Positions 15,482-31,219 of a stretch of DNA of 64,000 nucleotides are shown here, one piece after another. The position numbers and the translations under genes were made by a program. The notes under the pieces were generated by a model. It did no database searches and was not told the DNA's origin. It saw only the letters and a list, made by a program, of their open reading frames with translations. This DNA comes from a bacterium (GTDB lineage: Bacteria > CLD3 > SB21): the NCBI GenBank assembly GCA_019695335.1, contig JAIBAF010000002.1, positions 64,474 to 128,473 of the forward strand, in the 5' to 3' direction. Position 1 is the stretch's first letter, and each line of letters opens with the position of its first letter.

Positions 15482-15838
15482 ATGTTTGATTTCAAAGAAT
15501 GTGACGTAAATGAATTGGCAGACAAGCTCAATCTATCGACAAGGCAAATTCAAAGAATTGCATTATCCAGATTCAAAAAGCGACCTCATGCCTTTTTGGA
15601 ATCGTTGCGCCTCCATACGGCAATAAATGCTATTGTACATAGTAAACCTGTGTCGCTTGAAGCTGTAGCAAAATTTGCCGGTTTCAGAACGTACGATGCA
15701 TTTCGAAAATCTTTTCACCGGTGTTTTGGAATCGCCCCGTCAAAATGTAAAATCATTGCAGTTACTGCTCATGATAAATTCCAATTACTCAAGACATGGC
15801 AAAACAAAATCGAAAAGCGTTTTACTTTAAAGGAATAA
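15482..15838 (+). CDS. Small AraC/XylS-type HTH transcriptional regulator (DNA-binding domain only); candidate cluster regulator
   Basis: LADKLNLSTRQIQRI...FLE..RL..A...L......SL..VA...GF.....F.R.F....G..P AraC-type double-HTH pattern; AAGGAG-like RBS (tagggggcgttATG). Confidence 0.6.
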   Translation: MFDFKECDVNELADKLNLSTRQIQRIALSRFKKRPHAFLESLRLHTAINAIVHSKPVSLEAVAKFAGFRTYDAFRKSFHRCFGIAPSKCKIIAVTAHDKFQLLKTWQNKIEKRFTLKE

Positions 15839-18884: not shown

Positions 18885-19889
18885 ATGAAAAATGTCTGGA
18901 CGTCTGCTTATTTCTTTTACGCCGAGCCTTGGGAAAATTTTCTGTCGAAAACAGTCCACCCTTTTATCCAAAATGTAATGAAAGAAAAATTGGCCGATCA
19001 GTTTTTCTTTATCCGTTATTGGGAAAAAGGCCCGCATATTCGGTTGCGCTTCAAAGGCGAAGATAATATTATCGAGAAGAAGCTTAAACCTTATTTAACG
19101 GATTATTTTACCGATTTTTTTAAAGCACGGCCATCTCAACGCTATGAGCCGGAATGGATAAAACAATTGCCGCCCGAAAAAGCATGGTTTCCCAATAACA
19201 GCATTCAATGGGTGGATTACGAACCGGAAATCGAGCGCTATAGCGGGCAAGCAGGAATACTCATTGCCGAAAAGCAATTCGAAATATCGTCAAAAGTGGT
19301 ATTGTCCATTATCGAAGAAAACCGATCATGGAGTTATGACAGCGCTTTGGGCGCCGCAGTGCAATTGCATTTGGGTTTTGCTTATGCGATGGGTATGAGT
19401 CTTTATGAGGCGAAATATTTTTTTTCAGTGATTGCAGAGGGATGGATGTCCAGTGCGGTTGGACACAGTCTTTCGGCAGAAAATTTTCAGGAAAAAAAGA
19501 ATGAAATTTTGAAGGTTTTTGAGGAACATTTTAATAAGCAGCAATCGGAGCTTATACCGTTTCAGCAAACTTTGTGGGAAGCGCTCATCGATCATGCCGA
19601 TTTCGAGCAGGCATGGCTGAATGACTGGCTGCACGGTATGAAGGGTATTCTGACTGAATTGAACGGACTTTATTCAAAAAATAAATTGATCTTTCCAAAA
19701 AGTTTTAGAATCAATGACCAAATTGATGTTCCATCGAAACGCCAGTTATTGTGGTCGATCTGGACGAGTTATATTCACATGACCAATAACCGCTTGGGAA
19801 TCCAAAATCAGGATGAAGCTTTTTTGGGATATTTACTCAAAAGGAGTTTGGAAATTTGGCTGAGCGGTGACACGCACTGCCTGTGGTAA
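18885..19889 (+). CDS. Lanthipeptide dehydratase C-terminal elimination domain (SpaB_C / thiopeptide-type bacteriocin biosynthesis domain), stand-alone
   Basis: FFFIRYWEKGPHIRLRFKG and YEPEIERYSGQAG match the FFIRY..PHIRLRI and Y..EVERYGG motifs I recall from the NisB elimination domain. Confidence 0.8.
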   Translation: MKNVWTSAYFFYAEPWENFLSKTVHPFIQNVMKEKLADQFFFIRYWEKGPHIRLRFKGEDNIIEKKLKPYLTDYFTDFFKARPSQRYEPEWIKQLPPEKAWFPNNSIQWVDYEPEIERYSGQAGILIAEKQFEISSKVVLSIIEENRSWSYDSALGAAVQLHLGFAYAMGMSLYEAKYFFSVIAEGWMSSAVGHSLSAENFQEKKNEILKVFEEHFNKQQSELIPFQQTLWEALIDHADFEQAWLNDWLHGMKGILTELNGLYSKNKLIFPKSFRINDQIDVPSKRQLLWSIWTSYIHMTNNRLGIQNQDEAFLGYLLKRSLEIWLSGDTHCLW

Positions 19890-19899
19890 GAAAAAACAC

Positions 19900-20125
19900 A
19901 ACAAAACTAAAAGGAGAGTGATGTCCCTTGAAGGTGTGACGTGATTTTAGCAGTTTAACAAATAACTAATTGTTTAACAATGGGGAAAATTATAATGGGA
20001 AGTTTCGTATTACAGTGATCGAGCCAGCAAGCATTGATCATTTATTAGTAATATGAACTTCCCGATATTAAGCTAATGAAAGCCAATAACATTAGCAATT
20101 CCCTGAATCTAAGGAGATTTCAGTC
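19900..20125 (+). promoter_or_regulatory. Conserved precursor-upstream element, copy 1: SD plus 7-codon mini-ORF (19921..19944, MSLEGVT), TATAAT box (19991..19996), 17/16-bp inverted repeat (19997..20063) 62 nt before the precursor ATG
   Basis: About 225 nt repeated with high identity upstream of all three precursor genes; the inverted repeat is GGGAAGTTTCGTATTAC ... GTAATATGAACTTCCC. Confidence 0.6.
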
Positions 20126-20428
20126 ATGGGAAAGAAATTAAAACTCAAACTCGAAGACTTGAAAGTCCAGAGCTTCGTAACGGCAGCCAAATTCATTGTC
20201 GGTGGTTTATTGCCGACCCATCCGGATGCATGCGGTACGAATACTTGCCAGCAATATACTGAGGTTGGTTGTGGTCCTACAATTGGATGTGAGTCAGCCC
20301 AATGCGGCGATACTGTGGGGTGTACCTATGGCGGTGAATATACTCTGTGTGGTTCTATTTGCCAAAATACAGGGAATTGTACAACCGAAGCAACTGCACA
20401 CACAGAATGTTCATGGCAGCAATGTTAA
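20126..20428 (+). CDS. RiPP precursor peptide 1 (100 aa): leader MGKKLKLKLEDLKVQSFVTAAKFIVGG, then a 73-aa core with 11 Cys and 16 Ser/Thr
   Basis: AAGGAG RBS 9 nt upstream; leader shared with two paralogs; GG cleavage motif; next to LanB, LanC and LanT. Confidence 0.8.
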   Translation: MGKKLKLKLEDLKVQSFVTAAKFIVGGLLPTHPDACGTNTCQQYTEVGCGPTIGCESAQCGDTVGCTYGGEYTLCGSICQNTGNCTTEATAHTECSWQQC

Positions 20429-20435
20429 CCAATCT

Positions 20436-20470
20436 GCGAGGTGTGGTAGTACTGCACCTCGCTATTTTTT
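20436..20470 (+). terminator. Rho-independent terminator (GCGAGGTG-loop-CACCTCGC followed by TATTTTTT)
   Basis: 8-bp GC-rich stem plus T-tract 8 nt after the precursor stop. Confidence 0.6.
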
Positions 20471-20509
20471 AACCCATTGGTGTTTCTGTAATACACAGGC
20501 AATAAAGAA

Positions 20510-22459
20510 ATGAAGTTATTAAATTTTCTATTTCTAGCGACTTTACTAATTGGAAGCGATATTGTTGCGCAAAAAAGCAATAATGAGAATTCTAACTACA
20601 AAAAAGTAATCGAACAATTAGATAGTTGTTTTCAAAAAAAATGCCTATCAGTAGACGAGCTAAAAAATTATGCTGCCGCGCATATTCATGAATATAAAAT
20701 CAAACTCATCACTTGGCGCCTTTTCGATAGACTGAGCGATGGGCATTTAAAAAAAGCCGAAAAAGCACTGGATATGGCCTTTCAGATGGATTTAAAAGAT
20801 AATGAGGCTTTGTTTCTTAAGGCCATTCTTGAAAAAGAAAAAGGAAATAATAATGCAGCAGAAATATTTAACAAGTTGATTGACAATGTCAAGAACACTT
20901 ACGGGTTCAAAAAGCCGATAAATGAACTTGCAGAAATATTTTTTGAAGAAGATCGCTATAAGGAGCTAATCGAGCTATTATCAAAATACAAACATGACTC
21001 TGAAAGCTTTGAAATTTTTTTCAATTCTTTGATAGCTGATGGAGATGAAATAAAAACAACAAAAGTTTTTTACGAGATTTTAGAAAACGCCCGAGATTCA
21101 TTATTCATAAATAGTTTTTACATGCAAGCAGAACCCATTGCTGAAAAAGATGAAACTGTAGCTTGGGCAGCTTTGAAATTGCCAAATGCAAAAATTTCTT
21201 TTTTAAAAAAATTCTGGCAAAAGCGAAATCCGACGTTAACTCGCGACAGTAATCCGCGGCTTGTCGAACACTATAAAAGGCTGCAGTACGCTCGACAATT
21301 TTATTATAAATTAGGAAATCCAGGTTATGACGACAGAGGATTGATCTATATTAGACGTGGGAAACCCGACCGATGGTATGTTAATGACGAATTAACAAAT
21401 CTCTCTTGGGTATATGAGGATGATAAAAACCCTGCACATTTCGATTTTGTAAGTTCGGAATTTGGAGAGTATAAATTGGGTAATATCGGTGGTAGTGTTG
21501 TAGATCGAGCGCATCTGCATCCTTTTTATCAAAAAATGGCACAAAAATATTTAATGTGGAATTTGGCAGCATCAAGAGACAAAAAGCGGCTAATGGAAGA
21601 AATCAATCAGCAAATGTCTGCCGAACTTATTCGGATGGAATTTTATGAATCAAAGAAGATATCTTATATTTTTAGTCCCAATACGCCGCATCTTCCTGTC
21701 AATATACGTTTTGCTTCATTTAAGAAAACCATCGATACAACGACACTTGATATTTCTATCGCAATTCCTGTTTCAGAGTTAATATTTCATCAGAATCAAT
21801 CGGAAATAACAGTGCGAATCAAAGCGTTTGACAGCGATTTTGTTGAACAAGAAACTCAAGGTAAAAATTTGACTTTAAGTTCACAATTTAAAAATGAGAT
21901 GCATCTTGTTAGTGCATTTTCGCTGAAATTAAAGCCCAATCGTTATCGTATCGCTTTAGAGGTTGCTAATAATAATGAGGAGAAGCAAGGGATTTATTAT
22001 TTCGATTTAGACGTACGTGATTTTCAAAGCAGAGAATTGATGGTGAGTGACATCGATTGGGCTACGCGAATAGAAAATTTAGACTATTACAGTGGCATAG
22101 TTAAAGAGCATGCAAATGTGAAGATAATTCCATATCCGTTTACCAAGTTCCAACATCATCAGACTCTGTCTTTGTATTACGAAATTTACAACCTGACTTT
22201 AGACAATAATGGCCATTCGCAATACGAAGTAAGCTACAGCATCAACCCCAAGAAGAATTTTTTTGGAAAATTATTCGGTGCTATCAAAAAATCAGTAAAC
22301 ATTACAACTCCCAAGCAAGGGTCCTCGATATTCGAATTTGAATATATCACTTTGGATTTAAGCAACCTAGAAAAAGGCGAGGCTGATTTCATATTGCGAG
22401 TTTACGACAAAATCTCAAAACAGCAGATAGATCATAGGGAAACTGTATTTATTGAGTAA
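20510..22459 (+). CDS. Secreted TPR-like / GWxTD-like domain protein (649 aa), paralog of 29069..31219
   Basis: Signal peptide MKLLNFLFLATLLIGSDIVAQ; central FWQKRNP...YKRLQYARQFYY...PGYDDRGLIYIRRGKPD resembles the GWxTD-domain signature as I remember it, which is uncertain. Confidence 0.5.
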   Translation: MKLLNFLFLATLLIGSDIVAQKSNNENSNYKKVIEQLDSCFQKKCLSVDELKNYAAAHIHEYKIKLITWRLFDRLSDGHLKKAEKALDMAFQMDLKDNEALFLKAILEKEKGNNNAAEIFNKLIDNVKNTYGFKKPINELAEIFFEEDRYKELIELLSKYKHDSESFEIFFNSLIADGDEIKTTKVFYEILENARDSLFINSFYMQAEPIAEKDETVAWAALKLPNAKISFLKKFWQKRNPTLTRDSNPRLVEHYKRLQYARQFYYKLGNPGYDDRGLIYIRRGKPDRWYVNDELTNLSWVYEDDKNPAHFDFVSSEFGEYKLGNIGGSVVDRAHLHPFYQKMAQKYLMWNLAASRDKKRLMEEINQQMSAELIRMEFYESKKISYIFSPNTPHLPVNIRFASFKKTIDTTTLDISIAIPVSELIFHQNQSEITVRIKAFDSDFVEQETQGKNLTLSSQFKNEMHLVSAFSLKLKPNRYRIALEVANNNEEKQGIYYFDLDVRDFQSRELMVSDIDWATRIENLDYYSGIVKEHANVKIIPYPFTKFQHHQTLSLYYEIYNLTLDNNGHSQYEVSYSINPKKNFFGKLFGAIKKSVNITTPKQGSSIFEFEYITLDLSNLEKGEADFILRVYDKISKQQIDHRETVFIE

Positions 22460-22573
22460 ATAATTATCCTATACCGGAAGGCAAGACGACATTAGAAGTC
22501 ACAGTCAAAGACTTGACTTCGAATCAGGAGACGGTATCAAGGCTTGGATTGAATATTAGCAATGACGAAAAAT

Positions 22574-22596
22574 AATGGTTCTGATAAAGAACCATT
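22574..22596 (+). terminator. Hairpin AATGGTTCT-gataa-AGAACCATT downstream of the GWxTD-like gene (no T-tract)
   Basis: 9-bp perfect inverted repeat. Confidence 0.3.
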
Positions 22597-22624
22597 ACAA
22601 CGACAAATGCAAAACTAGTTATAG

Positions 22625-22845
22625 AAAGGAGGATGATGCGTTTTGAAGGTGTAAAGTGATTCACGCAGTTTTAGCTAAAGTAACAATTTTTTTTAACAGC
22701 AGGAAAAATATAAATGGGAAGTTACGTATTACGGTGATCGAGCCAGCAAGCATTGATCATTTATTAGTAATACGAACTCCCCATTGTGAAGCTAATGAAA
22801 ACCAATAACATTAGCAATTCCTGAAAATTCAAGGAGATTTCAGTC
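22625..22845 (+). promoter_or_regulatory. Conserved precursor-upstream element, copy 2: mini-ORF 22633..22659 (MMRFEGVK) and inverted repeat 22716..22782
   Basis: Same architecture and spacing as copy 1 (63 nt from inverted repeat to ATG); TATAAAT box immediately before the repeat. Confidence 0.6.
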
Positions 22846-23130
22846 ATGGGTAAGAAATTAAAACTCAAACTCGAAGACTTGAAAGTACAGAGCTTTGTGA
22901 CGGTAGCCAAGAAACGGATCATGGGAGGCGCTGAGCAGACATTGACCGGTTGTCCTGACCCAACCAATCCTAATCTTGGATGCACTGAGGTTGGGTGCGA
23001 AACGGCGCAAGTCAATTGTACAGGTCCAACTTATACAATTGATTTATGGTGCCAGACAGGTTTGTGTACATACCAGCCATGTCCAAGTCAAGGTTCAGAC
23101 TGCACGATTGATTTAGCCTGTACCTGGTAA
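22846..23130 (+). CDS. RiPP precursor peptide 2 (94 aa): leader MGKKLKLKLEDLKVQSFVTVAKKRIMGG, then a 66-aa core with 9 Cys
   Basis: Shared leader and GG site; the core N-terminus TLTGCPDPTNPNLGCTEVGC is shared with precursor 3. Confidence 0.8.
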   Translation: MGKKLKLKLEDLKVQSFVTVAKKRIMGGAEQTLTGCPDPTNPNLGCTEVGCETAQVNCTGPTYTIDLWCQTGLCTYQPCPSQGSDCTIDLACTW

Positions 23131-23146
23131 ACGGTAATTACAAAAA

Positions 23147-23193
23147 GGAAAGCCTGTGTTCTGAACAGTTGAATTTAAGAGCCGGGCTTTCCC
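23147..23193 (+). terminator. Terminator-like structure (GGAAAGCC...GGCTTTCC with a nested TGTTC-t-GAACA), then an A/T-rich run
   Basis: Inverted repeats read from the sequence 16 nt after the precursor stop; long loop, so low confidence. Confidence 0.35.
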
Positions 23194-23294
23194 ATTATTT
23201 AAAATAAATGAAAAATAATACAATTTGGAACCCGTCGTATTCATATTTTTAGAGTAAACTCAAAGATTGATAAACGGAAGGTCTGTAAAAAAAA

Positions 23295-24269
23295 ATGATT
23301 CAATGGAATGAAAACAGACATTTACTTTTTTTATGTATTCTGTTTTTTTCATGTAGTGAAAAAAACATTTTACAATTAAAAATTGAAAAAATTGGTTATT
23401 GGAAGTTAAGCCCAAAGACTGTTGTCAAATTAAGTTATGATGCAAAACAAATTGCCGTCATTGACAGTGGCCAACTAGTATTGGTTGATATTCATGAGTT
23501 CAAAAATCAAACTCGGTTTATAGATGAATTAGCCATCATAGATGTCTGTTTTTCAAAAGATAACAAATATTTAATAACCCGGGATTCGGTTAGATTTAAT
23601 GTATTCGATAGAGAGCATTTAACGCTGATACATCGAATTGATGTAGATTCTAATAAGCCAGCGTCGAATTTTAGTAATGTAGAAGCTTTTTCAGATACAA
23701 CCATTTATACCTTAGTCGAAAAATTTGAATCGCCTGTTTATCGTAAACGAAGCGACAGGTTTTCATTATCTAAAATTGAGGTTTATGATGTGTTTCATAA
23801 AAAGACTATCGCTGTAATTTCCGACTCAACCGATCGAATTGTTTCGGTTAAAGCAAATTTTAAAACCGGAAAAGCGGTTACACTTTCAAACAACAATCAA
23901 ATCAAAATATGGAACTTTAAAACCAATCAATTGGAAGCAGTGATATCAGAAAACATGTTTTCAATGTATAGACCCATAATCAGCCGCTTGGGGAAGTATA
24001 TCGCCTATTTCGATATTAATAATAATATCACAATTTGGGATATTTCATTGAAAACAAAATTATCCTCATTCCATTTTCAAGAACCCTTCGTGTATAAAAT
24101 TAGTGATAACATTTTTCTTACGGTGACAAGAGGGAGTATTGGCGTGCATGAGATTGCTAAGTCTGAGTTTGATGTGATTGAACTGACCAGCGTTTCTGAA
24201 GGAGGAAATATTTTTTTACAATTTTCGAATAGCACTGTGGAGGCTATGAAAATTTCAAACCAATTTTAA
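23295..24269 (+). CDS. Hypothetical lipoprotein (324 aa), possibly a beta-propeller-like repeat protein
   Basis: Lipobox-like LCILFFSCSEKN; repetitive beta-rich sequence; occupies the slot after precursor 2. Confidence 0.45.
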   Translation: MIQWNENRHLLFLCILFFSCSEKNILQLKIEKIGYWKLSPKTVVKLSYDAKQIAVIDSGQLVLVDIHEFKNQTRFIDELAIIDVCFSKDNKYLITRDSVRFNVFDREHLTLIHRIDVDSNKPASNFSNVEAFSDTTIYTLVEKFESPVYRKRSDRFSLSKIEVYDVFHKKTIAVISDSTDRIVSVKANFKTGKAVTLSNNNQIKIWNFKTNQLEAVISENMFSMYRPIISRLGKYIAYFDINNNITIWDISLKTKLSSFHFQEPFVYKISDNIFLTVTRGSIGVHEIAKSEFDVIELTSVSEGGNIFLQFSNSTVEAMKISNQF

Positions 24270-24287
24270 AATATTAGAGATTTTTTA

Positions 24288-26171
24288 ATGAATCAAACCA
24301 GTAATAACAGTTCTTTAGAACTGGCGAGATTAAGTCGTTCTATTCTAGAAGCAGCGCAAGATGATATTTTCGGTATTAGCTGGAAGACGATGGCTTTACA
24401 AAACAGGATTATCAGTTGGAACACATCTGAAAGTTTATATTCAGGCACCGCGGGCATTGCACTTTTTTTATTAAACTATTATCGGCACTCCGGAAATCAG
24501 GAAAGCATTGAAGCTGTACGTAATGCGGCGAAATGGATCGAGCATCATTGCAAAGAATTGGACAGTGATTATTACGCCTTTTTTACCGGAAGAATGGGCA
24601 TCCCATATTTTTTATTAGAATTGCATAAAGAAATACGCGATGAGAGCTTATTACATTCTGCAATTTCAATTGCCAAAAAAAGCAAAGTAATGTTGGCTTC
24701 AAACCAACATGTATGCGATTTGATCAATGGATTTTCGGGAACCCTGTTAGGGTTATTGCACGTGTATCATGCCACACGTTCAGATGATATCGAAGATTTA
24801 GCCGACAGATTTGCTGAGAAATTGATCGAAGAGTGTTGGGTTGCCGAACATGGAGTCTATTGGGACCGTTCAGAACAAACGATCCGAGGGCTTTGTGGAT
24901 TTTCGCATGGCGCGGCCGGAATCGGTTTCGTTTTTCTTGAACTCGGGCGTTATTTTCAAAACGAAGCTTTTTATTGGTTAGCGAGAGAGGCGTTTAGATA
25001 TGAGAATTGTTATTTCAATGCGCAATGGAACAACTGGCCGGATTTTCGCAAAGGGATTTGGTTTGAAAAAGACGCCGAAGAATTTGAAAAGGCGTACAAA
25101 AGTAATAATATCGATTTTTTTACAACGCCTAGGGATTTCAGCGCCTGGTGCCATGGAGCAGCCGGTATCGGTTTATCGCGTTTGCATGCATGGAAAGTTT
25201 TGGGAGACAAAGAATATTTTCATGATTATGAGAATGCTGTAAAGAAAGTTCGTTCAGTAGATTTAGTATCGCGGCCTCAACGTTCTTTTACTTTGTGTCA
25301 TGGATCGGGCGGCAATGCCGATCTTCTGATTGAAGCCTATCGTTTAACCGGAAATGAGTCATACCTGCAGGATGCTTATCGAATTTCAGAACTGGCGCTT
25401 CAATCAAGGCAGGAAATAGGTAAGTACATCTCAGGGTTTGCTGATGCAGGCAAAGAAGAGGATTTAAGCCTTTTTATGGGGAATGCCGGTATCGGTTATT
25501 TTTATTTAAGATTATTAAATCCGGAGATCAAGTCAATTTTAATGCCCGTTGTTGAAAGTAATGGAGTCAAGCCCAATCCAAAATATAAAACGCTCAACAT
25601 TTCTTTATCGCAATTACAAAAGCGAATGTGCGCGAAAATTTATCGGCGAACGACTTTTTTTATTGAACAATCGTTACCGGAATTTTTCAAAGAAAACAGT
25701 TCTTTGAATTCATGCTTACAGGATATAGAAAAGTTTTCTGTCCAAAATACAGACTCACGGTTAGATGAAGTCTTCAAAATTGAGAAAACAGCCAGAGAAT
25801 TGAATTTAGCTGTCGAAAGTTTTGCTTTACTTGAAGCTGAGAATCAATACCGACCAAAAAATTATGACGGAGATACCAAGTTAAAACTATCGCCAAGAGT
25901 GAGGTTGCTTACTACCAATTCAAATGAATCATCAGAAAAATTCATTGTACTTTATGTTACAATAGAAGGCGTTAAAGAAACGCTTGTTGAACAATTCACT
26001 GGATTAGTTTTATCGGCTTTCAGCGAGCCTTGTTCATCGAAAGCCGCTTTAACTAAAATTTTCGATATGATTGAATCGGAAAACCATCACGAACTCAAAC
26101 AGATCGTGATTCAGCAGATCAATGACGCTTTTTTAGCGGGGATATTAATTATTGCTGACACACATTTTTAA
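24288..26171 (+). CDS. LanC-like lanthipeptide cyclase with a ~210-aa C-terminal extension of unknown function
   Basis: Repeated GxAGI motifs (SGTAGIALFLL, HGAAGIGFVFL, GNAGIGYFYL); zinc-ligand motifs AWCHGAAGIG and LCHGSGGNADLL; 627 aa versus about 410 for canonical LanC. Confidence 0.8.
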   Translation: MNQTSNNSSLELARLSRSILEAAQDDIFGISWKTMALQNRIISWNTSESLYSGTAGIALFLLNYYRHSGNQESIEAVRNAAKWIEHHCKELDSDYYAFFTGRMGIPYFLLELHKEIRDESLLHSAISIAKKSKVMLASNQHVCDLINGFSGTLLGLLHVYHATRSDDIEDLADRFAEKLIEECWVAEHGVYWDRSEQTIRGLCGFSHGAAGIGFVFLELGRYFQNEAFYWLAREAFRYENCYFNAQWNNWPDFRKGIWFEKDAEEFEKAYKSNNIDFFTTPRDFSAWCHGAAGIGLSRLHAWKVLGDKEYFHDYENAVKKVRSVDLVSRPQRSFTLCHGSGGNADLLIEAYRLTGNESYLQDAYRISELALQSRQEIGKYISGFADAGKEEDLSLFMGNAGIGYFYLRLLNPEIKSILMPVVESNGVKPNPKYKTLNISLSQLQKRMCAKIYRRTTFFIEQSLPEFFKENSSLNSCLQDIEKFSVQNTDSRLDEVFKIEKTARELNLAVESFALLEAENQYRPKNYDGDTKLKLSPRVRLLTTNSNESSEKFIVLYVTIEGVKETLVEQFTGLVLSAFSEPCSSKAALTKIFDMIESENHHELKQIVIQQINDAFLAGILIIADTHF

Positions 26172-26177
26172 ATTTAC

Positions 26178-28388
26178 ATGAGCAAACATACAATGATCTT
26201 TAACTTCCCATTTTCAAAACAGCTAGACCGTATGGATTGCGGGCCTACGTGTCTTCGCATGATCGCACGGCACTACGGCAAATCTTACCCCATTCAATAT
26301 CTTCGTGAAAAATGCTTTATTACCAGAGAAGGCTCTTCGCTCCTTGGCATCAGCGATGCAGCCGAATCGATCGGTTTTCGGACGCTATCGATCAAAGTGA
26401 ATTATGAAAAATTAGACGATGACGTACCGCTTCCATGTATCGTCCACTGGAACCAAAACCATTTTGTGGTAGTGTACAAGATAAACCGTAACAAAGTTTA
26501 TGTAGCTGATCCGGCTCACGGGCTTTTGAAGTATAAGAAAGAAGAATTTCTTAAAAGCTGGCTCAGTGTAGAATCGAACGGCCGGCAGGAAGGCGTTGCA
26601 CTTGTGTTGGAGCCTTCTCCCGATTTCTATCATGCCGATGAAGGTGTTACTCAAGACCGGACGAAAATGTCTTTTTTATTGACGTATCTCAAACCGTATA
26701 AAAAATTCTTTGTTCAGATATTTCTCAGCATGCTGATCGGCAGCCTTTTAGGCTTGATCTTTCCTTTTTTGACGCAAGCCATCGTCGATTTTGGAATCAA
26801 TAATCAAAACATCGGATTTGTCTATACGATCTTAATCGCACAACTCATGCTTTTCACCGGCCGTACGGCCGTCGAATTTATCCGAAGCTGGATTTTCCTG
26901 CACATTGGAACACGAATCAACGTGACGATCATTTCGGATTTTTTGATCAAACTGATGAAATTGCCGATGCCATTTTTTGACACCAAAATGATCGGCGATT
27001 TATTGCAGCGCATCGGCGATCACACGCGCATCCAGCAGTTTCTTACTTCCACAACCATCAATTCGTTATTTGCCATCATCAATTTGTTGATCTTCGGCTT
27101 GGTGCTGGCCCTCTATAGCTCATACATTTTTGGCGTGTTTTTTATCGCATCGGTTTTATCCACGTCCTGGATACTTGTTTTCATGAAGAAAAGGAAAGAA
27201 ATCGATTATAAACGATTCAATCAATTATCTCAAAATCAAAGCCAGTTGATCCAATTGATCACCGGTATGCAGGAAATCAAGCTCAATGGAGCGGAAAAAC
27301 AAAAGCGATGGAATTGGGAAAATGTCCAGGCAAAGTTATTCAAAATCAGTGTCAGCTCTCTCACTTTAGATCAAACCCAGCAAGCGGGTATGCTCTTTAT
27401 CAATGAAACGAAAAATATTTTCATATCTTTTCTTGCTGCAAAGGAAGTGATCGACGGCAACATGACTTTGGGCATGATGATGGCCGTGCAATATATCATC
27501 GGCCAATTGAACGCTCCTATCGGGCAATTAATCGGATTTGTTCAGACCGCTCAAGACGCCAAAATCAGTCTTGAACGTATGGGCGAGATTCACAACAAAA
27601 AAAACGAAGAAGACCCTGAGACGGCTGGTTTAAATGCGTTACCAACCGCTCGTACCATCAGTGTGAATAACTTGTCTTTTCAATATGAGGGACCGCATTC
27701 GGAATTTGTTCTCAAAGATATTTCATTAGCCGTACCGGAAGGAAAAGTGACGGCGATCGTTGGAACCAGTGGAAGCGGCAAAACGACGCTGATGAAATTA
27801 TTTTTGAAGTTTTACGAGCCCGTTCAGGGGAATATTTTTTTGGGAGGAATTGATTTACAGAAAATAAGCGCCCGGCTTTGGCGCCAGAAATGCGGTGTGG
27901 TCATTCAAGACGGATTTATTTTCTCGGATACGATTGCCAATAATATCGCTCTCGGGCATGAACGCATCGATCGTCAACGCGTGGAGGAAGCGGCTCATAT
28001 TGCCAATATTGACGATTTTATCGAAACGCTGCCTCTGGGTTACAACACAAAAATCGGTTCGGAAGGACACGGTCTAAGCCAGGGACAAAGGCAGCGGATT
28101 CTGATTGCAAGGGCTGTGTACAAAAATCCGGAATTTATCTTTTTTGATGAAGCGACCAGCGCGTTGGATGCTAATAATGAACGAACAATCATCGATAATC
28201 TGCAAAAATTCTTTCAAGGAAAAACCGTTGTGGTGATTGCCCACCGGCTCAGCACGGTCAAGAACGCCGATCAAATTATCGTTTTGGAAAAAGGCCGGTT
28301 GATCGAGTCGGGAAGCCACTCCGAATTGGCCGACATTCGCGGCGCCTATTTTCATCTCGTGAAAAATCAATTGGAATTGGGAAGTTAA
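26178..28388 (+). CDS. Bacteriocin/lanthipeptide ABC exporter with N-terminal C39 peptidase domain (LanT/SunT type)
   Basis: C39 catalytic region MDCGPTCLRMIARHYGK and the HWNQNHFVVVY His; 6-TM domain; Walker A GTSGSGKTT, signature LSQGQRQRILIARA, Walker B IFFDEATSALD. Confidence 0.9.
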   Translation: MSKHTMIFNFPFSKQLDRMDCGPTCLRMIARHYGKSYPIQYLREKCFITREGSSLLGISDAAESIGFRTLSIKVNYEKLDDDVPLPCIVHWNQNHFVVVYKINRNKVYVADPAHGLLKYKKEEFLKSWLSVESNGRQEGVALVLEPSPDFYHADEGVTQDRTKMSFLLTYLKPYKKFFVQIFLSMLIGSLLGLIFPFLTQAIVDFGINNQNIGFVYTILIAQLMLFTGRTAVEFIRSWIFLHIGTRINVTIISDFLIKLMKLPMPFFDTKMIGDLLQRIGDHTRIQQFLTSTTINSLFAIINLLIFGLVLALYSSYIFGVFFIASVLSTSWILVFMKKRKEIDYKRFNQLSQNQSQLIQLITGMQEIKLNGAEKQKRWNWENVQAKLFKISVSSLTLDQTQQAGMLFINETKNIFISFLAAKEVIDGNMTLGMMMAVQYIIGQLNAPIGQLIGFVQTAQDAKISLERMGEIHNKKNEEDPETAGLNALPTARTISVNNLSFQYEGPHSEFVLKDISLAVPEGKVTAIVGTSGSGKTTLMKLFLKFYEPVQGNIFLGGIDLQKISARLWRQKCGVVIQDGFIFSDTIANNIALGHERIDRQRVEEAAHIANIDDFIETLPLGYNTKIGSEGHGLSQGQRQRILIARAVYKNPEFIFFDEATSALDANNERTIIDNLQKFFQGKTVVVIAHRLSTVKNADQIIVLEKGRLIESGSHSELADIRGAYFHLVKNQLELGS

Positions 28389-28467
28389 ACTCGGGTGTTG
28401 AAAATTGAATTTAGTGAGTAAGTGGTATAGTCTTCGTCAGAGCTATTGACGAAGAAAATAAAAAAAC

Positions 28468-28690
28468 TAAATCTTCGAAAGGAGCGTGATGTCCCTTGAA
28501 GGTGTGAAGTGATTTCAGCAGTTATCATAAACTAATTCATTAACAACGGGGAAAATTATAAAGGGAAGTTACGTATTACCGTGATCGAGCCTCGCTGGGT
28601 TTTGATCATTTAAGTAATACGAACTTCCCGATATTAAGCTAATGAAAACATCTAACATTAGCAATTCCCCGAGAATATTGGAGATTAAAA
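28468..28690 (+). promoter_or_regulatory. Conserved precursor-upstream element, copy 3: mini-ORF 28489..28512 (MSLEGVK) and inverted repeat 28563..28629
   Basis: Same architecture; 61 nt from inverted repeat to ATG; TATAAA box before the repeat. Confidence 0.6.
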
Positions 28691-28999
28691 ATGGGAAAGA
28701 AATTAAAACTCAAACTCGAAGACTTGAAAGTCCAAAGCTTCGTGACATCGTCCAAGAAACAGTTATTAGGGGGCGCAGAACCGACGTTGACAGGCTGTCC
28801 CGATCCAACCAATCCTAATCTTGGCTGTACGGAAGCTGGCTGTCCCACCATGCAAGTTGCGTGTGGTGGTGGAACTGAATTCACATGTACCGGAATCTAT
28901 GATTGCCGGACTGAAGCATGCTCTTATCAACAGTCTGGCTGTGGAACCTGTTATACGGATTGCGCTTGTCAAACAGGCGGCGGAACTGCGTGTTATTAG
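28691..28999 (+). CDS. RiPP precursor peptide 3 (102 aa): leader MGKKLKLKLEDLKVQSFVTSSKKQLLGG, then a 74-aa core with 12 Cys
   Basis: Shared leader and GG site; the core is Cys/Gly/Thr-rich. Confidence 0.8.
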   Translation: MGKKLKLKLEDLKVQSFVTSSKKQLLGGAEPTLTGCPDPTNPNLGCTEAGCPTMQVACGGGTEFTCTGIYDCRTEACSYQQSGCGTCYTDCACQTGGGTACY

Positions 29000-29017
29000 G
29001 TTGCAAATAACTGATAA

Positions 29018-29052
29018 TGGGATTCCATTGCAAAATGGAATCCCACTTTTTA
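29018..29052 (+). terminator. Rho-independent terminator (GGGATTCCATT-gcaaa-AATGGAATCCC followed by ACTTTTTT)
   Basis: 11-bp perfect stem plus T-tract 18 nt after the precursor stop; the next gene starts 17 nt later. Confidence 0.65.
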
Positions 29053-29068
29053 AGGGGTAAATAATTTT

Positions 29069-31219
29069 ATGAAGTATTATTTTTTTGTAATCGTCTATTT
29101 GTTTTTATCAATTAACAGATCAATTTATTCTCAACAGGACTCAAATTTGACTGTTCAAGAACTTGAAACACAAGCAGCTTCGGGCAATCGAGAAATCAGG
29201 TTACAACTGGCTCATCACTACCTGAAAAGCGAACAATTTGACAAAATCGTTCAGCTTTATAAAACTGATTACAAAAAAAAGCAGTGCACTTCCGATGAAT
29301 ATAAGATTTACGCCATTGCGCGTTTGCAAAGTTACAGAAATCTCGTTATTACGCGTAAATTAATTGATCGCTTGATTGGCGATGATTTACGCCATGCCAA
29401 ATTAGCGTTGGCTGAAGCCTTAAAACTTGACGGCCATGACATAGAAGCAAAATTTTTTACGGGTGTATTGAATCGGATTATTGGAAAAGATGAAGAGGCA
29501 TTAAAAATCCTTTACGACGTTTTTGAGGAAGACTGCAATTATCAAACGTATGCGTTCACCGAGGTCGCATCTGAACTCAGTCTCATTTTTATAAAAAAGG
29601 GCGATTATGATGCGGTAAAAAAATTGCATGAAAAACAGCTTACTACTTATCCGAAAGACGCATGGTCTAAAATACAATTGGCCGTAGCCTATGGCGAATT
29701 AGATAGCGCCGATATTATGATGAAACTATTTTTCGAAGGACTTGATCAATTGATCGATCAGAAACAACTGTTTCAATTGTTTGAAGATTGTTCTATCATA
29801 GCAACAACAGATGAGAAAAAAAATTGGAAAGAATTGAATACAAACAATGATAAAAAAGATTTTTTAAGAAGTTTTTGGAAAAAACGCGATCCTAATCCAT
29901 TTGACGATATCAACGAAGCATTAATTCAATATTTTAAACGTGTCCATTACGCTAAAGCTATGTATCCAAAACCTCAATCCCCTGGATTTGACGATCGGGG
30001 ACTGATTTATGTGAGGTTTGGAAAACCGGATTATATTTTTTATGGGAGCAGCGATGTCAATATTCGCGAAAACGAATCATGGATTTATTATAACCTCGAA
30101 GGAGGCCTGCATTTTGATTTTGTCCTAATCGGGACTTCCTATGAATTGCGCCCTCTTGGCGATGCCTCGATCATGACTCAAGCGATCATGGGTGAAAAGA
30201 AATTATCCGATTTGTATAGAGAACGAAGTCATCTGGATCCTTATTACACAAACATTCAATTTAAATTCGAAACGGGCCGCTACAATTCGTCAACGATTGA
30301 AAGCAGTTTTGAGTACCGGCGGGATTATGAAAAAATGTTGGAGTATTCTCAAAAACAATATTTTGCGTTTAATTCGTCCACAGCGCCCCTTTTTGTTAAT
30401 ACACGATATGCAACATTTAAAGACTCCGATCAGAAATCACGGTTGGATTTTTATTATATATTGCCTTATTCACAAATGAATTTTTTAGACACGCTTGGAG
30501 CTTTTAAATGGTCAAAGAATTTTGCTGCTATAAAAATCTTTGATTATAAAAATTATCGTGACGTTGTAACACTGGAGCGGGAGAATCTGATTTTTGCAGA
30601 TAGTATGCAGCAAAAAACTTACGGTTTGGTTGACGAATTCCGGTATTCTTTAAATCCAGGAAAATATATCCTTGCCTTTCAAATCAGTAACAATGACAAA
30701 CAAAAATTCAATGTGTTCCAATATGAAGTGTTTGTCAGAGATTACTCTGCGGATACATTGACTATCAGTGACATTCAATTGGCGGCATTTATAAGCGAAA
30801 ACGATTCGACACAAATTCAGTTTATCAAACCCCATTCGGCCGTAAAAGTAATACCCAATGCAGCGGCTCATATTACGCGTTCATTGCCGTTGTCGATTTA
30901 TTTTGAGATTTACAATCTGACGCTCGATAATGACGGACGCAATTCATATGAAATATCCTATCGGTTCAAACAGCCAGAAAATTCAAGGAGCGGTTTATTC
31001 GCCAGAATTAAAAAATTATTTATTAACGAAAAAAAATCTTCTATTGCTTCAACGACGATGTTGAGCGGTAATTCTACTACAGAAAGGTCATACATTAGTT
31101 TGGATGTCAGCGAATTGAATGGAGGGCTCATCGATTTGGAAATTCGCGTCAAAGACCTGATTACCAATATAGAAACTTATTCTAACGTTGAGTTAAATTT
31201 AGTGGATAAGAAGAAATGA
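29069..31219 (+). CDS. Secreted TPR-like / GWxTD-like domain protein (716 aa), paralog of 20510..22459
   Basis: Signal peptide; FWKKRDPNPFDD...YFKRVHYAKAMY...SPGFDDRGLIYVRFGKPD; same C-terminal architecture (…LSLYYEIYNLTLDN…) as the paralog. Confidence 0.5.
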   Translation: MKYYFFVIVYLFLSINRSIYSQQDSNLTVQELETQAASGNREIRLQLAHHYLKSEQFDKIVQLYKTDYKKKQCTSDEYKIYAIARLQSYRNLVITRKLIDRLIGDDLRHAKLALAEALKLDGHDIEAKFFTGVLNRIIGKDEEALKILYDVFEEDCNYQTYAFTEVASELSLIFIKKGDYDAVKKLHEKQLTTYPKDAWSKIQLAVAYGELDSADIMMKLFFEGLDQLIDQKQLFQLFEDCSIIATTDEKKNWKELNTNNDKKDFLRSFWKKRDPNPFDDINEALIQYFKRVHYAKAMYPKPQSPGFDDRGLIYVRFGKPDYIFYGSSDVNIRENESWIYYNLEGGLHFDFVLIGTSYELRPLGDASIMTQAIMGEKKLSDLYRERSHLDPYYTNIQFKFETGRYNSSTIESSFEYRRDYEKMLEYSQKQYFAFNSSTAPLFVNTRYATFKDSDQKSRLDFYYILPYSQMNFLDTLGAFKWSKNFAAIKIFDYKNYRDVVTLERENLIFADSMQQKTYGLVDEFRYSLNPGKYILAFQISNNDKQKFNVFQYEVFVRDYSADTLTISDIQLAAFISENDSTQIQFIKPHSAVKVIPNAAAHITRSLPLSIYFEIYNLTLDNDGRNSYEISYRFKQPENSRSGLFARIKKLFINEKKSSIASTTMLSGNSTTERSYISLDVSELNGGLIDLEIRVKDLITNIETYSNVELNLVDKKK

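What the first reader, a model, noticed from the sequence alone, without database searches (positions are those of the whole stretch)
20126..28999. Three paralogous precursors: identical leader, double-glycine site, hypervariable 66-74-aa cores with 9-12 Cys
All three precursors begin MGKKLKLKLEDLKVQSFVT. After 8-9 more residues each reaches a GG motif (FIVGG, RIMGG, QLLGG), which matches the C39 peptidase domain of the adjacent exporter. The cores are unusually long for class-I lanthipeptides and are rich in Cys, Gly and Thr/Ser: 11 Cys and 16 Ser/Thr in core 1, 9 Cys in core 2, 12 Cys in core 3. They are strongly diverged from one another; only the N-terminal block TLTGCPDPTNPNLGCTE(V/A)GC is shared by cores 2 and 3. 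A conserved leader with diversified cores implies one modification machinery making several highly cross-linked products, with many thioether and/or disulfide rings. The LEDLKVQSF stretch may be the LanB recognition box (compare FNLDL in nisin-type leaders).
Basis: seen in the sequence. Interest (0 to 1): 0.85.

Follow-up and report, generated by a model that had tools for sequence, protein, structure and literature searches.

The report
Three pinensin-type lanthipeptide precursor genes
The three small genes are real precursors of a known type of ribosomal peptide (pinensin-family class I lanthipeptides); their cores are unusually long and cysteine-rich, and they are new members of a family already catalogued, not a new kind of system.

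Summary
ORFs 20126-20428, 22846-23130 and 28691-28999 share the first 19 residues. Each reaches GG at residues 26-28. The cores are 73, 66 and 74 aa with 11, 9 and 12 Cys.

All three leaders pass NCBIfam NF038180 (pinensin-family lanthipeptide). NCBI already names two of them so, and mis-starts the third. They lie in a complete class I cluster: AraC-type HTH, split LanB (glutamylation plus elimination), LanC, C39-ABC exporter and HlyD adaptor.

The genes are coding. Every leader difference between copies is synonymous. 31 of 32 Cys-terminated segments contain a Ser/Thr donor (0 of 100,000 shuffles), which predicts strings of up to 9-12 thioether rings.

The same leader with Cys-rich cores of up to about 90 aa and 13 Cys recurs across Bacteroidota, Acidobacteriota, Ignavibacteria and Gemmatimonadota. 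Length and Cys count are therefore high but not unique.

Three extras emerged:
- Each gene is a cassette: a ~230-nt conserved 5' module, the precursor, a terminator hairpin, then usually a secreted GWxTD/TPR protein.
- The LanC carries a C-terminal RRE-fold (RiPP recognition element) domain.
- A close relative keeps the enzymes at 88-97% identity but carries a different cassette.

Verdict: a new member of a known kind, of moderate interest.

The parts
15482..15838 (+). 118-aa stand-alone AraC-type HTH protein. Candidate pathway regulator and left border of the cluster.
   Evidence: Pfam HTH_18, E = 1.7e-14, above cut-off. It is 86% identical and in the same position in relative L056, where all DNA further upstream is unrelated.
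15846..18737 (+). Split LanB, glutamylation part (963 aa).
   Evidence: PF04738 Lant_dehydr_N, E = 1.2e-37. The best solved relative is TbtB, 6ec7, E = 1.5e-28. NCBI names it 'lantibiotic dehydratase family protein'.
18885..19889 (+). Split LanB, glutamate-elimination part (334 aa).
   Evidence: PF14028 Lant_dehydr_C, E = 2.7e-43. TIGR03891, E = 9.1e-28. Weak matches to the elimination domains of NisB and MadB.
19892..20125 (+). Conserved 5' module, copy 1: probable promoter and structured 5' UTR ending in AAGGAG.
   Evidence: Alignment, repeat families D1, D3 and D4, nhmmer E = 5.5e-75. It folds with z = -4.4. The consensus is a ~27-bp hairpin plus a 7-bp hairpin.
20126..20428 (+). Precursor A1: 27-aa leader and 73-aa core with 11 Cys and 16 Ser/Thr.
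   Evidence: NF038180 33.3 bits. NCBI MBX7150182.1, 'pinensin family lanthipeptide'. P0129/L006 carries a homologous core.
20436..20472 (+). Terminator/attenuator hairpin and T-run after A1.
   Evidence: 12-bp stem followed by TATTTTTT. The 52-nt stretch 20429-20480 that contains the hairpin folds at -19.9 kcal/mol, z = -4.4.
20510..22459 (+). GWxTD-domain protein 1 (649 aa): signal peptide, TPR-like helical repeats, GWxTD region, C-terminal beta domains.
   Evidence: TIGR04514, E = 1.5e-13. PF20094. The N-terminus MKLLNFLFLATLLIGSDIVAQ looks like a signal peptide. Secondary structure comes from a low-confidence AF2 model.
22611..22845 (+). Conserved 5' module, copy 2.
   Evidence: nhmmer E = 1.4e-70.. 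An independent Logan contig, L057, is 100% identical over 21834-23276.
22846..23130 (+). Precursor A2: 28-aa leader and 66-aa core with 9 Cys and 14 Ser/Thr.
   Evidence: NF038180 28.9 bits. NCBI calls only an 83-aa version from an internal start (P0003).
23147..23192 (+). Hairpin after A2.
   Evidence: The 80-nt stretch 23131-23210 that contains the hairpin folds at -22.5 kcal/mol, z = -3.6.
23295..24269 (+). 324-aa probable lipoprotein with a WD40-like beta-propeller. It occupies the slot that GWxTD genes hold after A1 and A3.
   Evidence: Weak hits to beta-propeller families, all below cut-off. The N-terminus ...LFLCILFFSCSEK looks like a lipobox (by eye). No homologue in the other loci.
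24288..26171 (+). LanC cyclase (res ~47-416) fused to a C-terminal TglI-like/RRE-fold domain (res ~413-627).
26178..28388 (+). Peptidase-containing ABC transporter (PCAT/AMS), 736 aa.
   Evidence: PF03412, E = 4.8e-38, plus ABC_membrane and ABC_tran. The C39 domain aligns with LahT150, 6mpz, E = 1.2e-22, with the catalytic Cys, His and Asp contexts conserved.
28460..28690 (+). Conserved 5' module, copy 3.
   Evidence: nhmmer E = 3.9e-70..
28691..28999 (+). Precursor A3: 28-aa leader and 74-aa core with 12 Cys and 15 Ser/Thr.
   Evidence: NF038180 30.3 bits. NCBI MBX7150188.1, 'pinensin family lanthipeptide'. The first 34 core residues are identical in L055.
29018..29055 (+). Terminator/attenuator hairpin and T-run after A3.
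   Evidence: 12-bp stem followed by CTTTTT. The 61-nt stretch 29000-29060 that contains the hairpin folds at -18.9 kcal/mol, z = -3.2.
29069..31219 (+). GWxTD-domain/TPR protein 2 (716 aa) with a signal peptide.
   Evidence: TIGR04514, E = 1.1e-20. PF20094 and TPR_19. 31% identical to GWxTD1 and 43% to the GWxTD of L055.
31216..32517 (+). HlyD-family membrane-fusion adaptor (433 aa), right border of the cluster. RNase Y follows.
   Evidence: HlyD_3, E = 3.6e-17. The next gene, 32720-34363, is RNase Y.

Best explanation
The region is a pinensin-type class I lanthipeptide gene cluster (about 15.5-32.5 kb of the window). It carries three paralogous precursor genes.

**Proposed pathway, with the status of each step:**
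1. Each precursor is transcribed from its own copy of a conserved ~230-nt 5' module and translated from a strong AAGGAG site. A hairpin after the gene attenuates read-through. This step is inferred.
2. The invariant N-terminal leader box (KLKLKLEDLKVQSFVT) is bound by recognition domains of the modifying enzymes. These are the split LanB and the RRE-fold (RiPP recognition element) domain fused to LanC. The fold is shown; binding is inferred.
3. LanB-N glutamylates Ser/Thr using Glu-tRNA(Glu), and LanB-C eliminates glutamate to give dehydroalanine (Dha) or dehydrobutyrine (Dhb). The gene families are shown; the chemistry is inferred from NisB, TbtB and TbtC.
4. The zinc-dependent LanC adds each Cys to a dehydro residue lying 1-6 positions N-terminal to it. 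This would give a chain of up to 11, 9 and 11-12 mostly methyllanthionine rings. The sequence pattern is shown; the rings are inferred.
5. The C39 domain of the ABC exporter cuts after GG, and the exporter with its HlyD adaptor secretes the 66-74-aa products.

**Accessory proteins.** The genes that follow the precursors encode secreted proteins: two GWxTD/TPR proteins and one beta-propeller lipoprotein. They are probably peptide-specific partners, most likely immunity or binding proteins. This last point is a low-confidence inference.
For: **Family membership.** All three leaders exceed the NF038180 cut-off. NCBI already names A1 and A3 'pinensin family lanthipeptide'.

**Complete enzyme set in one + strand block**:
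- LanB-N is closest to the split dehydratase TbtB.
- LanC retains GFSHG, WCHGA and LCHGS.
- The C39 catalytic contexts match LahT150.

**The ORFs are coding.**
- All 12 pairwise codon differences in leader codons 1-19 are synonymous.
- A2 against A3 over codons 1-58 shows 21 synonymous and 10 non-synonymous differences.
- AAGGAG or GGAG lies 7-9 nt before each ATG.
- A stable hairpin follows each gene.
- The same leader is found on peptides in dozens of unrelated genomes.

**Thioether logic.**
- 31 of 32 Cys-terminated segments contain Ser/Thr. This was reached by 0 of 100,000 full shuffles and by 14 of 100,000 shuffles with Cys positions fixed.
- The same bias holds family-wide: 328 of 387 segments, reached by 0 of 5,000 shuffles.
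- Cys counts of 11 and 9 are odd, so all-disulfide pairing within one peptide is impossible.

**Cassette pairing.** A precursor followed by a GWxTD gene occurs in the window twice, in L006 and in L055.

**Literature.** Walker 2020 (PMC7268733) reports that class I LanAs in Bacteroidetes have GG-ended leaders with C39 proteases and split LanBs, and LanCs that group with LanM cyclase domains.
Against: - There are no expression or mass-spectrometry data, so no ring has been demonstrated.
- One Cys of A3 (the AC segment) has no donor of its own. Some Cys may therefore stay free, form disulfides or make overlapping rings.
- Characterised relatives have only a few rings, for example three in the Runella product (PMC9993889).
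- The canonical hydrophobic -7, -12 and -15 pattern of double-glycine leaders is only partly present (reading).
- No LanI, LanFEG or outer-membrane channel gene is recognisable in the cluster.
- GWxTD proteins also occur away from any lan genes (L052-L054). None of the 45 leader-bearing genome loci has one. Their role here is therefore conjecture.
- The 5' module shows almost no covariation, with 1 compensatory pair among 39. Two metagenome scans found no further copies.
Confidence: 0.85

Rival explanations
1. The peptides are exported double-glycine bacteriocin-like peptides held together mainly by disulfides. LanB and LanC modify few or none of their residues, or serve a different substrate.
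For: The Cys content is high and the C39-ABC/HlyD export system is generic. The same leader also occurs on Cys-free cores in Saprospiraceae MAGs, some next to only a PCAT. The leader family is therefore not strictly tied to LanBC.
Against: - Odd Cys numbers (11 and 9) rule out full intramolecular disulfide pairing.
- The Ser/Thr-before-every-Cys pattern is far beyond chance. It has no rationale in a disulfide peptide.
- No other precursor candidate exists in the cluster.
- Long-core relatives also sit beside split LanB and LanC, for example L025.
Confidence: 0.08
2. The shared N-termini are translated parts of a repeated non-coding element (promoter, UTR or mobile repeat), and no peptide is made.
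For: The repeat does extend ~230 nt upstream of the ATG, into DNA that is clearly non-coding. That part folds well.
Against: - Leader differences are exclusively synonymous.
- The reading frames stay open for 94-102 codons through sequence that has diverged to saturation at four-fold sites (14 of 22).
- The leader is conserved at the protein level, not the DNA level, across phyla.
- The leaders hit a curated HMM.
- Shine-Dalgarno (SD) sites and terminators flank each ORF.
Confidence: 0.01
3. The products are genuine lanthipeptides but not antibiotics. They would act together with their adjacent secreted GWxTD/TPR or beta-propeller proteins, for example as ligands, matrix or surface components, or signals. 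The cassettes would then be ligand-partner pairs and not toxin-immunity pairs.
For: - The cores are acidic, with 7 Asp/Glu against 0-1 Lys/Arg. By inspection of the core sequences, they also lack the nisin-type (SxxxCTP[G/S]C) and mersacidin-type (TxTxEC) lipid II motifs quoted in PMC7268733.
- No LanFEG or LanI is present.
- The precursor-GWxTD pairing persists across GWxTD divergence down to 31-43% identity.
Against: Nothing is known about GWxTD function; no papers were found. GWxTD genes also occur without lan genes. Pinensin, the one natively isolated relative, is antifungal (PMC7268733, PMC9680876).
Confidence: 0.25

Closest known systems
Pinensin biosynthetic system of Chitinophaga pinensis (PinA, split PinB1/B2, PinC). 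NCBIfam NF038180, 'pinensin family lanthipeptide'; family I_17 of Walker et al. 2020.
   Same: - The leader HMM is matched above cut-off by all three precursors.
- The LanB is split into glutamylation and elimination proteins.
- The LanC resembles LanM cyclase domains more than NisC: TIGR03897 E = 1.9e-73, and the best PDB hit is LicM2. Walker et al. describe the same for this family (PMC7268733).
   Different: - The cores are 66-74 aa with 9-12 Cys. The Chitinophaga-type precursors recovered here have short cores with 2 Cys (L016 and L021).
- There is no visible core similarity.
- This cluster has three precursor cassettes, each with its own 5' module, and GWxTD partner genes that are absent from the Chitinophaga loci.
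- The host is an unclassified MAG.
Gram-negative class I lanthipeptides with several GG-leader precursors: Ped15.1/15.2 (Pedobacter lusitanus), thalassomonasins, viridisins A1/A2, and the Runella and Chryseobacterium products.
   Same: These clusters have multiple precursors with a conserved double-glycine leader and divergent cores, processed by one LanB/LanC set (PMC9680876, PMC9993889).
   Different: Those systems use a full-length LanB (PMC9680876). Their products are much smaller, for example three thioether rings in the Runella product (PMC9993889). No partner-protein cassettes are reported there.
Prochlorosin-type combinatorial lanthipeptide systems (class II ProcM with many ProcA). From general knowledge.
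   Same: The logic is the same: an invariant leader, hypervariable cores and one promiscuous modification machinery.
   Different: Prochlorosins are class II (a single LanM) with an NHLP-type leader and tens of precursors scattered in the genome. Here the system is class I with three clustered cassettes.
PCAT/AMS double-glycine exporters (LahT, ComA, PCAT1).
   Same: The C39 domain is 1.2e-22 to LahT150, with the catalytic Cys, His and Asp contexts conserved. The precursors have a GG cleavage motif and a hydrophobic residue at -4.
   Different: The usual -7, -12 and -15 hydrophobic pattern is only partly kept. In the wider family the conserved leader box lies at a variable distance from GG. 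It therefore probably serves the modifying enzymes and not the protease.
RRE-containing RiPP partner proteins (TglI/DUF2063, the lasso B1 protein TbiB1, PqqD).
   Different: Here the domain is fused to a class I cyclase. It has no detectable sequence similarity to Pfam or PDB entries. Leader binding has not been tested.

Membership tests
Class I lanthipeptide biosynthetic cluster | LanB-type dehydratase with both a glutamylation domain (PF04738) and an elimination domain (PF14028). | tested here: met
   PF04738, E = 1.2e-37, on 15846-18737. PF14028, E = 2.7e-43, on 18885-19889. The two domains are on separate proteins.
Class I lanthipeptide biosynthetic cluster | Stand-alone LanC cyclase with the zinc ligands (Cys, Cys-His) and the catalytic His. 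| tested here: met
   PF05147, E = 4.6e-63. GFSHG, WCHGA and LCHGS align with the same motifs of LicM2.
Class I lanthipeptide biosynthetic cluster | Precursor with an N-terminal leader and a core containing Ser/Thr donors and Cys acceptors. | tested here: met
   Core composition. 31 of 32 Cys-terminated segments contain Ser/Thr, reached by 0 of 100,000 shuffles.
Class I lanthipeptide biosynthetic cluster | (Methyl)lanthionine thioether rings in the mature product. | not testable with these tools
   This needs MS/MS or NMR of the modified peptide.
Pinensin family lanthipeptide (NCBIfam NF038180 leader domain) | The leader matches the curated HMM above its cut-off of 24 bits. | tested here: met
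   33.3, 28.9 and 30.3 bits for A1, A2 and A3. NCBI's own annotation agrees for A1 and A3.
Pinensin family lanthipeptide (NCBIfam NF038180 leader domain) | Associated split LanB and a LanM-like LanC, the context described for family I_17. | tested here: met
   The description is in PMC7268733.
Pinensin family lanthipeptide (NCBIfam NF038180 leader domain) | Core related to pinensin A/B. This is not a defining feature of the HMM family and is listed for clarity. | tested here: not met
   The Chitinophaga precursors recovered (L016, L021) have short cores with 2 Cys and no visible similarity to the cores here. This is a comparison by eye only.
Double-glycine leader / PCAT export system | C39 peptidase domain with catalytic Cys and His, fused to an ABC exporter. 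| tested here: met
   PF03412, E = 4.8e-38, plus ABC domains. Alignment to LahT150: DCG aligns with ECG, HWNQNHFVV with HWNFNHFVV, and ADPA with NDPA.
Double-glycine leader / PCAT export system | Leader ending in GG (or GA/GS) with hydrophobic residues at -4, -7, -12 and -15. | tested here: inconclusive
   GG is present in all three. Position -4 is I, I and L. Position -7 is A, K and K. Position -12 is S, F and F. Position -15 is K, V and V (reading).
RRE (RiPP recognition element) domain | Winged-helix fold of three strands and three helices, similar to PqqD or lasso B1 proteins. | tested here: met
RRE (RiPP recognition element) domain | Binds the leader of the cognate precursor. | not testable with these tools
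   This needs binding assays or a co-structure.
GWxTD-domain proteins (TIGR04514 / PF20094) | Matches the GWxTD domain HMM above cut-off. | tested here: met
   51.2 and 74.1 bits against a cut-off of 28. PF20094 is also above cut-off.

The most novel reading that the evidence does not exclude
The unit of evolution may be a cassette: 5' module, precursor, terminator, then a secreted GWxTD/TPR (or beta-propeller) protein. On this reading the cassette diversifies and recombines like a polymorphic toxin-immunity or ligand-receptor pair, while the modifying enzymes stay nearly constant.

The mature products would be 66-74-residue peptides with 9-12 consecutive thioether rings. That would make them the most heavily cross-linked lanthipeptides known. 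They would be read by an RRE fused to the cyclase.
Probability: 0.25. Interest if true: 0.65.

Novelty: new member of a known kind. Interest (0 to 1): 0.4.

Why it matters
**For natural-product discovery.** These are concrete, complete and independently re-sequenced targets. Three 66-74-aa cores are each predicted to carry about ten sequential methyllanthionine rings. That is far more than any characterised relative, and the cores carry none of the known lipid II-binding motifs.

**For enzymology.**
- The cluster poses a clear question: how does a split LanB/LanC pair process substrates two to three times the usual length?
- It also suggests a testable answer for leader recognition, namely the RRE-fold domain on the cyclase. 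That domain is conserved in more than 100 homologues.

**For evolution.** Enzymes that are 88-97% identical sit beside a divergent precursor/GWxTD cassette in a close relative. This hints at cassette turnover and gives the uncharacterised GWxTD family its first functional lead.

None of this changes the classification. The system is a member of a family that annotation pipelines already recognise.

Tried and rejected
- **Rfam.** Scanning the whole window at gathering thresholds gave no match, so the 5' module is not a known RNA family.
- **Metagenome scans for the 5' module.** Two whole-collection scans, one for the long hairpin arms and one for the proximal hairpin plus SD plus start, found nothing. 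I could therefore not gather enough copies for a covariation test. With three copies, only 1 of 39 pairs is compensatory.
- **Mini-ORF in the 5' module.** A 7-codon ORF (MSLEGVT*, MRFEGVK*, MSLEGVK*) behind an AAAGGAG site looked like a regulatory uORF. I rejected it because its ATG is ATA in the relative L056 and its codons change non-synonymously in copy 2.
- **Word-index protein search with A3.** It returned only A3 itself. The exhaustive profile search was needed to find the family. Three of its hits (P0128, P0139, P0173) are low-complexity repeat proteins and were discarded.
- **GWxTD as a general partner of this leader family.** Rejected. No GWxTD ORF occurs in any of the 45 genome loci, and GWxTD homologues exist without lan genes. 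The pairing is specific to this lineage.
- **AF2 model of GWxTD1.** The alignment had only four sequences. The model is poor (pLDDT 57, pTM 0.35), with the GWxTD region below 50. I did not fold-search it.
- **Pfam and PDB sequence searches of the LanC C-terminal domain.** Nothing significant was found. Only the fold comparison was informative.
- **Promoter consensus scan.** The cluster region had fewer sigma-70-like sites than shuffles (33 against 50.8), and none fell in the conserved module. The promoter is unassigned.
- **Taxonomy of the source.** It remains 'bacterium' in NCBI. I had no search left to place it. Low SD usage (17 of 47 genes), BshA, and a T9SS-tail protein next to the relative's cluster suggest the FCB group.

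Full report
**1. Observation**

The three ORFs exist exactly as described.
- They lie on the + strand at 20126-20428 (100 aa), 22846-23130 (94 aa) and 28691-28999 (102 aa).
- A degenerate back-translation of the first 13 residues hits only these three places, against none in 100 shuffles. A six-frame motif scan finds no fourth copy.
- The leaders are 27, 28 and 28 aa and end in FIVGG, RIMGG and QLLGG.
- The cores are 73, 66 and 74 aa with 11, 9 and 12 Cys and 16, 14 and 15 Ser+Thr. They are acidic, with 7 Asp/Glu against 0-1 Lys/Arg.
- Cores 2 and 3 share their first ~23 residues. Core 1 is alignable only in patches.

**2. What the region is**

Genes from 15.5 to 32.5 kb all lie on the + strand. 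In order they are:
- an AraC-type HTH protein of 118 aa (HTH_18, E = 1.7e-14);
- the LanB glutamylation protein (PF04738);
- the LanB elimination protein (PF14028);
- A1, then a GWxTD protein;
- A2, then a beta-propeller lipoprotein;
- LanC (PF05147);
- a C39-ABC exporter;
- A3, then a GWxTD/TPR protein;
- HlyD.

RNase Y follows, so the cluster ends there.

All three leaders pass the curated cut-off of NCBIfam NF038180, 'pinensin family lanthipeptide'. The exact sequences are in NCBI from a MAG labelled only 'bacterium' (locus tags K1X84_). A1 and A3 are already named pinensin-family lanthipeptides. A2 is called from an internal start as an 83-aa hypothetical protein, which is an annotation error.

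The enzymes look active.
- LanC retains the GFSHG, WCHGA and LCHGS motifs, aligned with LicM2.
- The C39 domain aligns with LahT150 through the catalytic Cys, His and Asp contexts.
- LanB-N is closest to the split dehydratase TbtB.

This matches what Walker et al. 2020 reported for Bacteroidetes class I systems: GG-ended leaders with C39 proteases, split LanBs, and LanCs that group with LanM cyclase domains (family I_17, which includes pinensin) (PMC7268733).

**3. Are the small ORFs real genes?**

About 230 nt upstream of each ATG is conserved too. The coding evidence is nevertheless strong.
- In leader codons 1-19, all pairwise differences are synonymous (4, 3 and 5, against 0 non-synonymous).
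- A2 against A3 over the 58 colinear codons shows 21 synonymous and 10 non-synonymous changes.
- Four-fold sites between A2 and A3 are near saturation (14 of 22 differ), yet the frames stay open.
- Each ATG is preceded by AAGGAG or GGAG.
- Each stop is followed by a stable hairpin (fold z-scores -3.2 to -4.4 for the three stretches that contain them). Two of the three hairpins are followed by T-runs.
- The leader is conserved as protein, not as DNA, in many unrelated genomes (see section 5).

**4. Chemistry predicted by the sequence**

I cut each core after every Cys. 31 of the 32 resulting segments contain at least one Ser/Thr, and the nearest donor lies 1-6 residues before the Cys.
- No full shuffle out of 100,000 reaches this value.
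- Only 14 of 100,000 shuffles that keep the Cys positions fixed reach it.
- The bias holds for 51 other family members with at least 4 Cys: 328 of 387 segments, against a shuffle mean of 275, reached by 0 of 5,000 shuffles.

This is what one expects if each Cys closes a ring onto its own upstream dehydro residue. It predicts a string of up to 11, 9 and 11-12 mainly methyllanthionine rings (Thr 12-13 against Ser 2-3 per core). Odd Cys counts in A1 and A2 exclude an all-disulfide peptide. Ring formation itself is inference.

**5. How unusual are the cores?**

An exhaustive profile search of 1.84 billion representatives found 53 hits at E <= 1e-3. Nearly all are 55-126-aa peptides with the same leader and Cys-rich cores.

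A DNA scan of one genome per species for the leader box gave 45 loci.
- Most are Bacteroidota: Saprospiraceae, Chitinophagales, Cytophagales, Fulvivirga and Chitinophaga.
- Others are Acidobacteriota/Thermoanaerobaculia, Ignavibacteria and Gemmatimonadota.

Over 72 family cores the median is 42 aa with 6 Cys. 19 cores are at least 55 aa, and the maxima are 92 aa and 13 Cys. A Thermoanaerobaculia locus with a 75-aa, 10-Cys core also has split LanB and LanC (L025).

The window's cores are therefore in the upper range but not unique. Among characterised relatives (pinensin, Ped15.1/2, thalassomonasins, viridisins, and the Runella and Chryseobacterium products), the ring count I found reported is three, for the Runella product. 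I found no characterised relative with a core of comparable length or Cys count (PMC9680876, PMC9993889).

**6.

*(a) Cassettes.* Each precursor has its own copy of a ~230-nt 5' module.
- Pairwise identity between copies is 73-82%. That is more conserved than four-fold sites in the adjoining coding DNA.
- The module occurs only three times in the window.
- It folds better than shuffles (z = -4.4) into a ~27-bp hairpin plus a 7-bp hairpin just before the SD. With three copies there is essentially no covariation.
- It matches no Rfam family.

*(b) Partner genes.* A1 and A3 are each followed by a signal-peptide GWxTD/TPR protein. The two are 31% identical to each other.
- The same arrangement appears in L006, where an A1-like core is followed by a GWxTD gene.
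- It also appears in L055.
- GWxTD genes are absent from all 45 other leader loci and occur elsewhere without lan genes. The pairing is therefore specific to this lineage.

*(c) A close relative.* L055 and L056 come from one metagenome, SRR25655421.
- Its HTH, LanB-N and LanB-C are 86%, 97% and 88% identical to those of the window, in a different genomic context.
- Its visible cassette has a core whose first 34 residues equal A3 and whose end resembles A1 (GDTVGC ... HTQCSWQTC).
- Its GWxTD protein is only 43% identical to the best window copy.
- Both contigs end inside the 5' module, as expected if the repeat breaks assemblies.

This suggests cassette turnover or recombination under conserved enzymes. 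It could equally be a paralogous cassette that the window lacks.

*(d) An RRE on the cyclase.* Residues ~413-627 of LanC have no Pfam or PDB sequence match.
- They give a confident AF2 model (pLDDT 88).
- The extension is present in over 100 homologous LanCs of 620-710 aa.
- In the wider family, the invariant leader box lies 5-14 residues from GG. This fits a box read by recognition domains rather than by the protease.

I found no description of an RRE-fused LanC in the searched literature. That is absence of evidence only.

**7. Mechanism and confidence**

- Shown: gene families, catalytic motifs, leader family, coding selection, the Ser/Thr-Cys pattern, the RRE fold and cassette synteny.
- Inferred: transcription from the 5' module, leader binding, the number and topology of rings, export across both membranes, and any role of the GWxTD or beta-propeller proteins.
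- I put 0.85 on 'pinensin-type class I lanthipeptide cluster with three functional precursors'. I put about 0.7 on most Cys being in thioethers, and about 0.3 on the partner proteins being immunity or binding proteins.

**8. Verdict**

The system belongs to a catalogued family and is already annotated as such, so it is a new member of a known kind. It is a good discovery target and raises two modest new leads, the cassette/GWxTD pairing and the RRE-bearing cyclase. Interest is 0.4.

Noticed in passing
window 25524-26171 (LanC residues ~413-627): The class I cyclase carries a C-terminal domain with no sequence-level annotation. Its predicted fold matches RiPP recognition proteins (TglI/DUF2063, TbiB1, PqqD). 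The domain is conserved in more than 100 LanC homologues of 620-710 aa.
   Followed up: yes
window 19892-20125, 22611-22845, 28460-28690: A ~230-nt non-coding module precedes each precursor gene and occurs nowhere else in the window. It is more conserved than four-fold sites of the adjacent coding DNA and is predicted to form a long hairpin plus a 7-bp hairpin. It matches no Rfam family, and no further copies were found in metagenome scans.
   Followed up: partly
window 19910-19950 and equivalents (inside the 5' module): A 7-codon mini-ORF lies behind an AAAGGAG site in all three copies. Its ATG is ATA in the relative (end of L056), so it is probably not a conserved uORF.
   Followed up: yes
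window 15482-15838: A stand-alone 118-aa AraC-type HTH gene lies directly upstream of lanB. It is conserved (86% identity) in relative L056, where the DNA further upstream is unrelated. It probably marks the cluster border and may be the pathway regulator.
   Followed up: partly
window 22846-23130: NCBI's record calls A2 from an internal start (83 aa, 'hypothetical protein'). This removes the first 11 leader residues, so A2 missed the pinensin-family name.
   Followed up: yes
L055 1-283 and L056 (Logan SRR25655421): A close relative has LanB-N 97% identical to the window's. Its visible cassette has a mosaic core: the first 34 residues are identical to A3 and the C-terminal end resembles A1. 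Its GWxTD partner is only 43% identical. Both contigs break inside the repeated 5' module.
   Followed up: partly
L007, L010, L017, L024, L026, L027, L032 (Saprospiraceae and Chitinophagales MAGs): The same leader family is attached to Cys-free, basic cores (for example GGTIIIKGRRFVYTTRWTTVDTRV). In some loci only a PCAT lies nearby. The leader is therefore not used exclusively for lanthipeptides.
   Followed up: no
L001 and L003 (closest LanC homologues, 41-42% identity): These clusters contain two consecutive pairs of split LanB genes before the LanC. L003 also has a 57-aa precursor with a different GG leader, which is listed as hitting PF28317 Lant_leader_dom.
   Followed up: no
window 12464-14770: A 768-aa secreted WD40-repeat protein lies just upstream of the cluster. 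It is not conserved next to the relative's cluster (L056), so it is probably unrelated, despite the small beta-propeller lipoprotein inside the cluster.
   Followed up: partly
window 59810-63196 (- strand): An 1128-aa protein combines a long N-terminal TPR region with a ClpA/ClpB-type double AAA+ ATPase. This is an unusual architecture.
   Followed up: no
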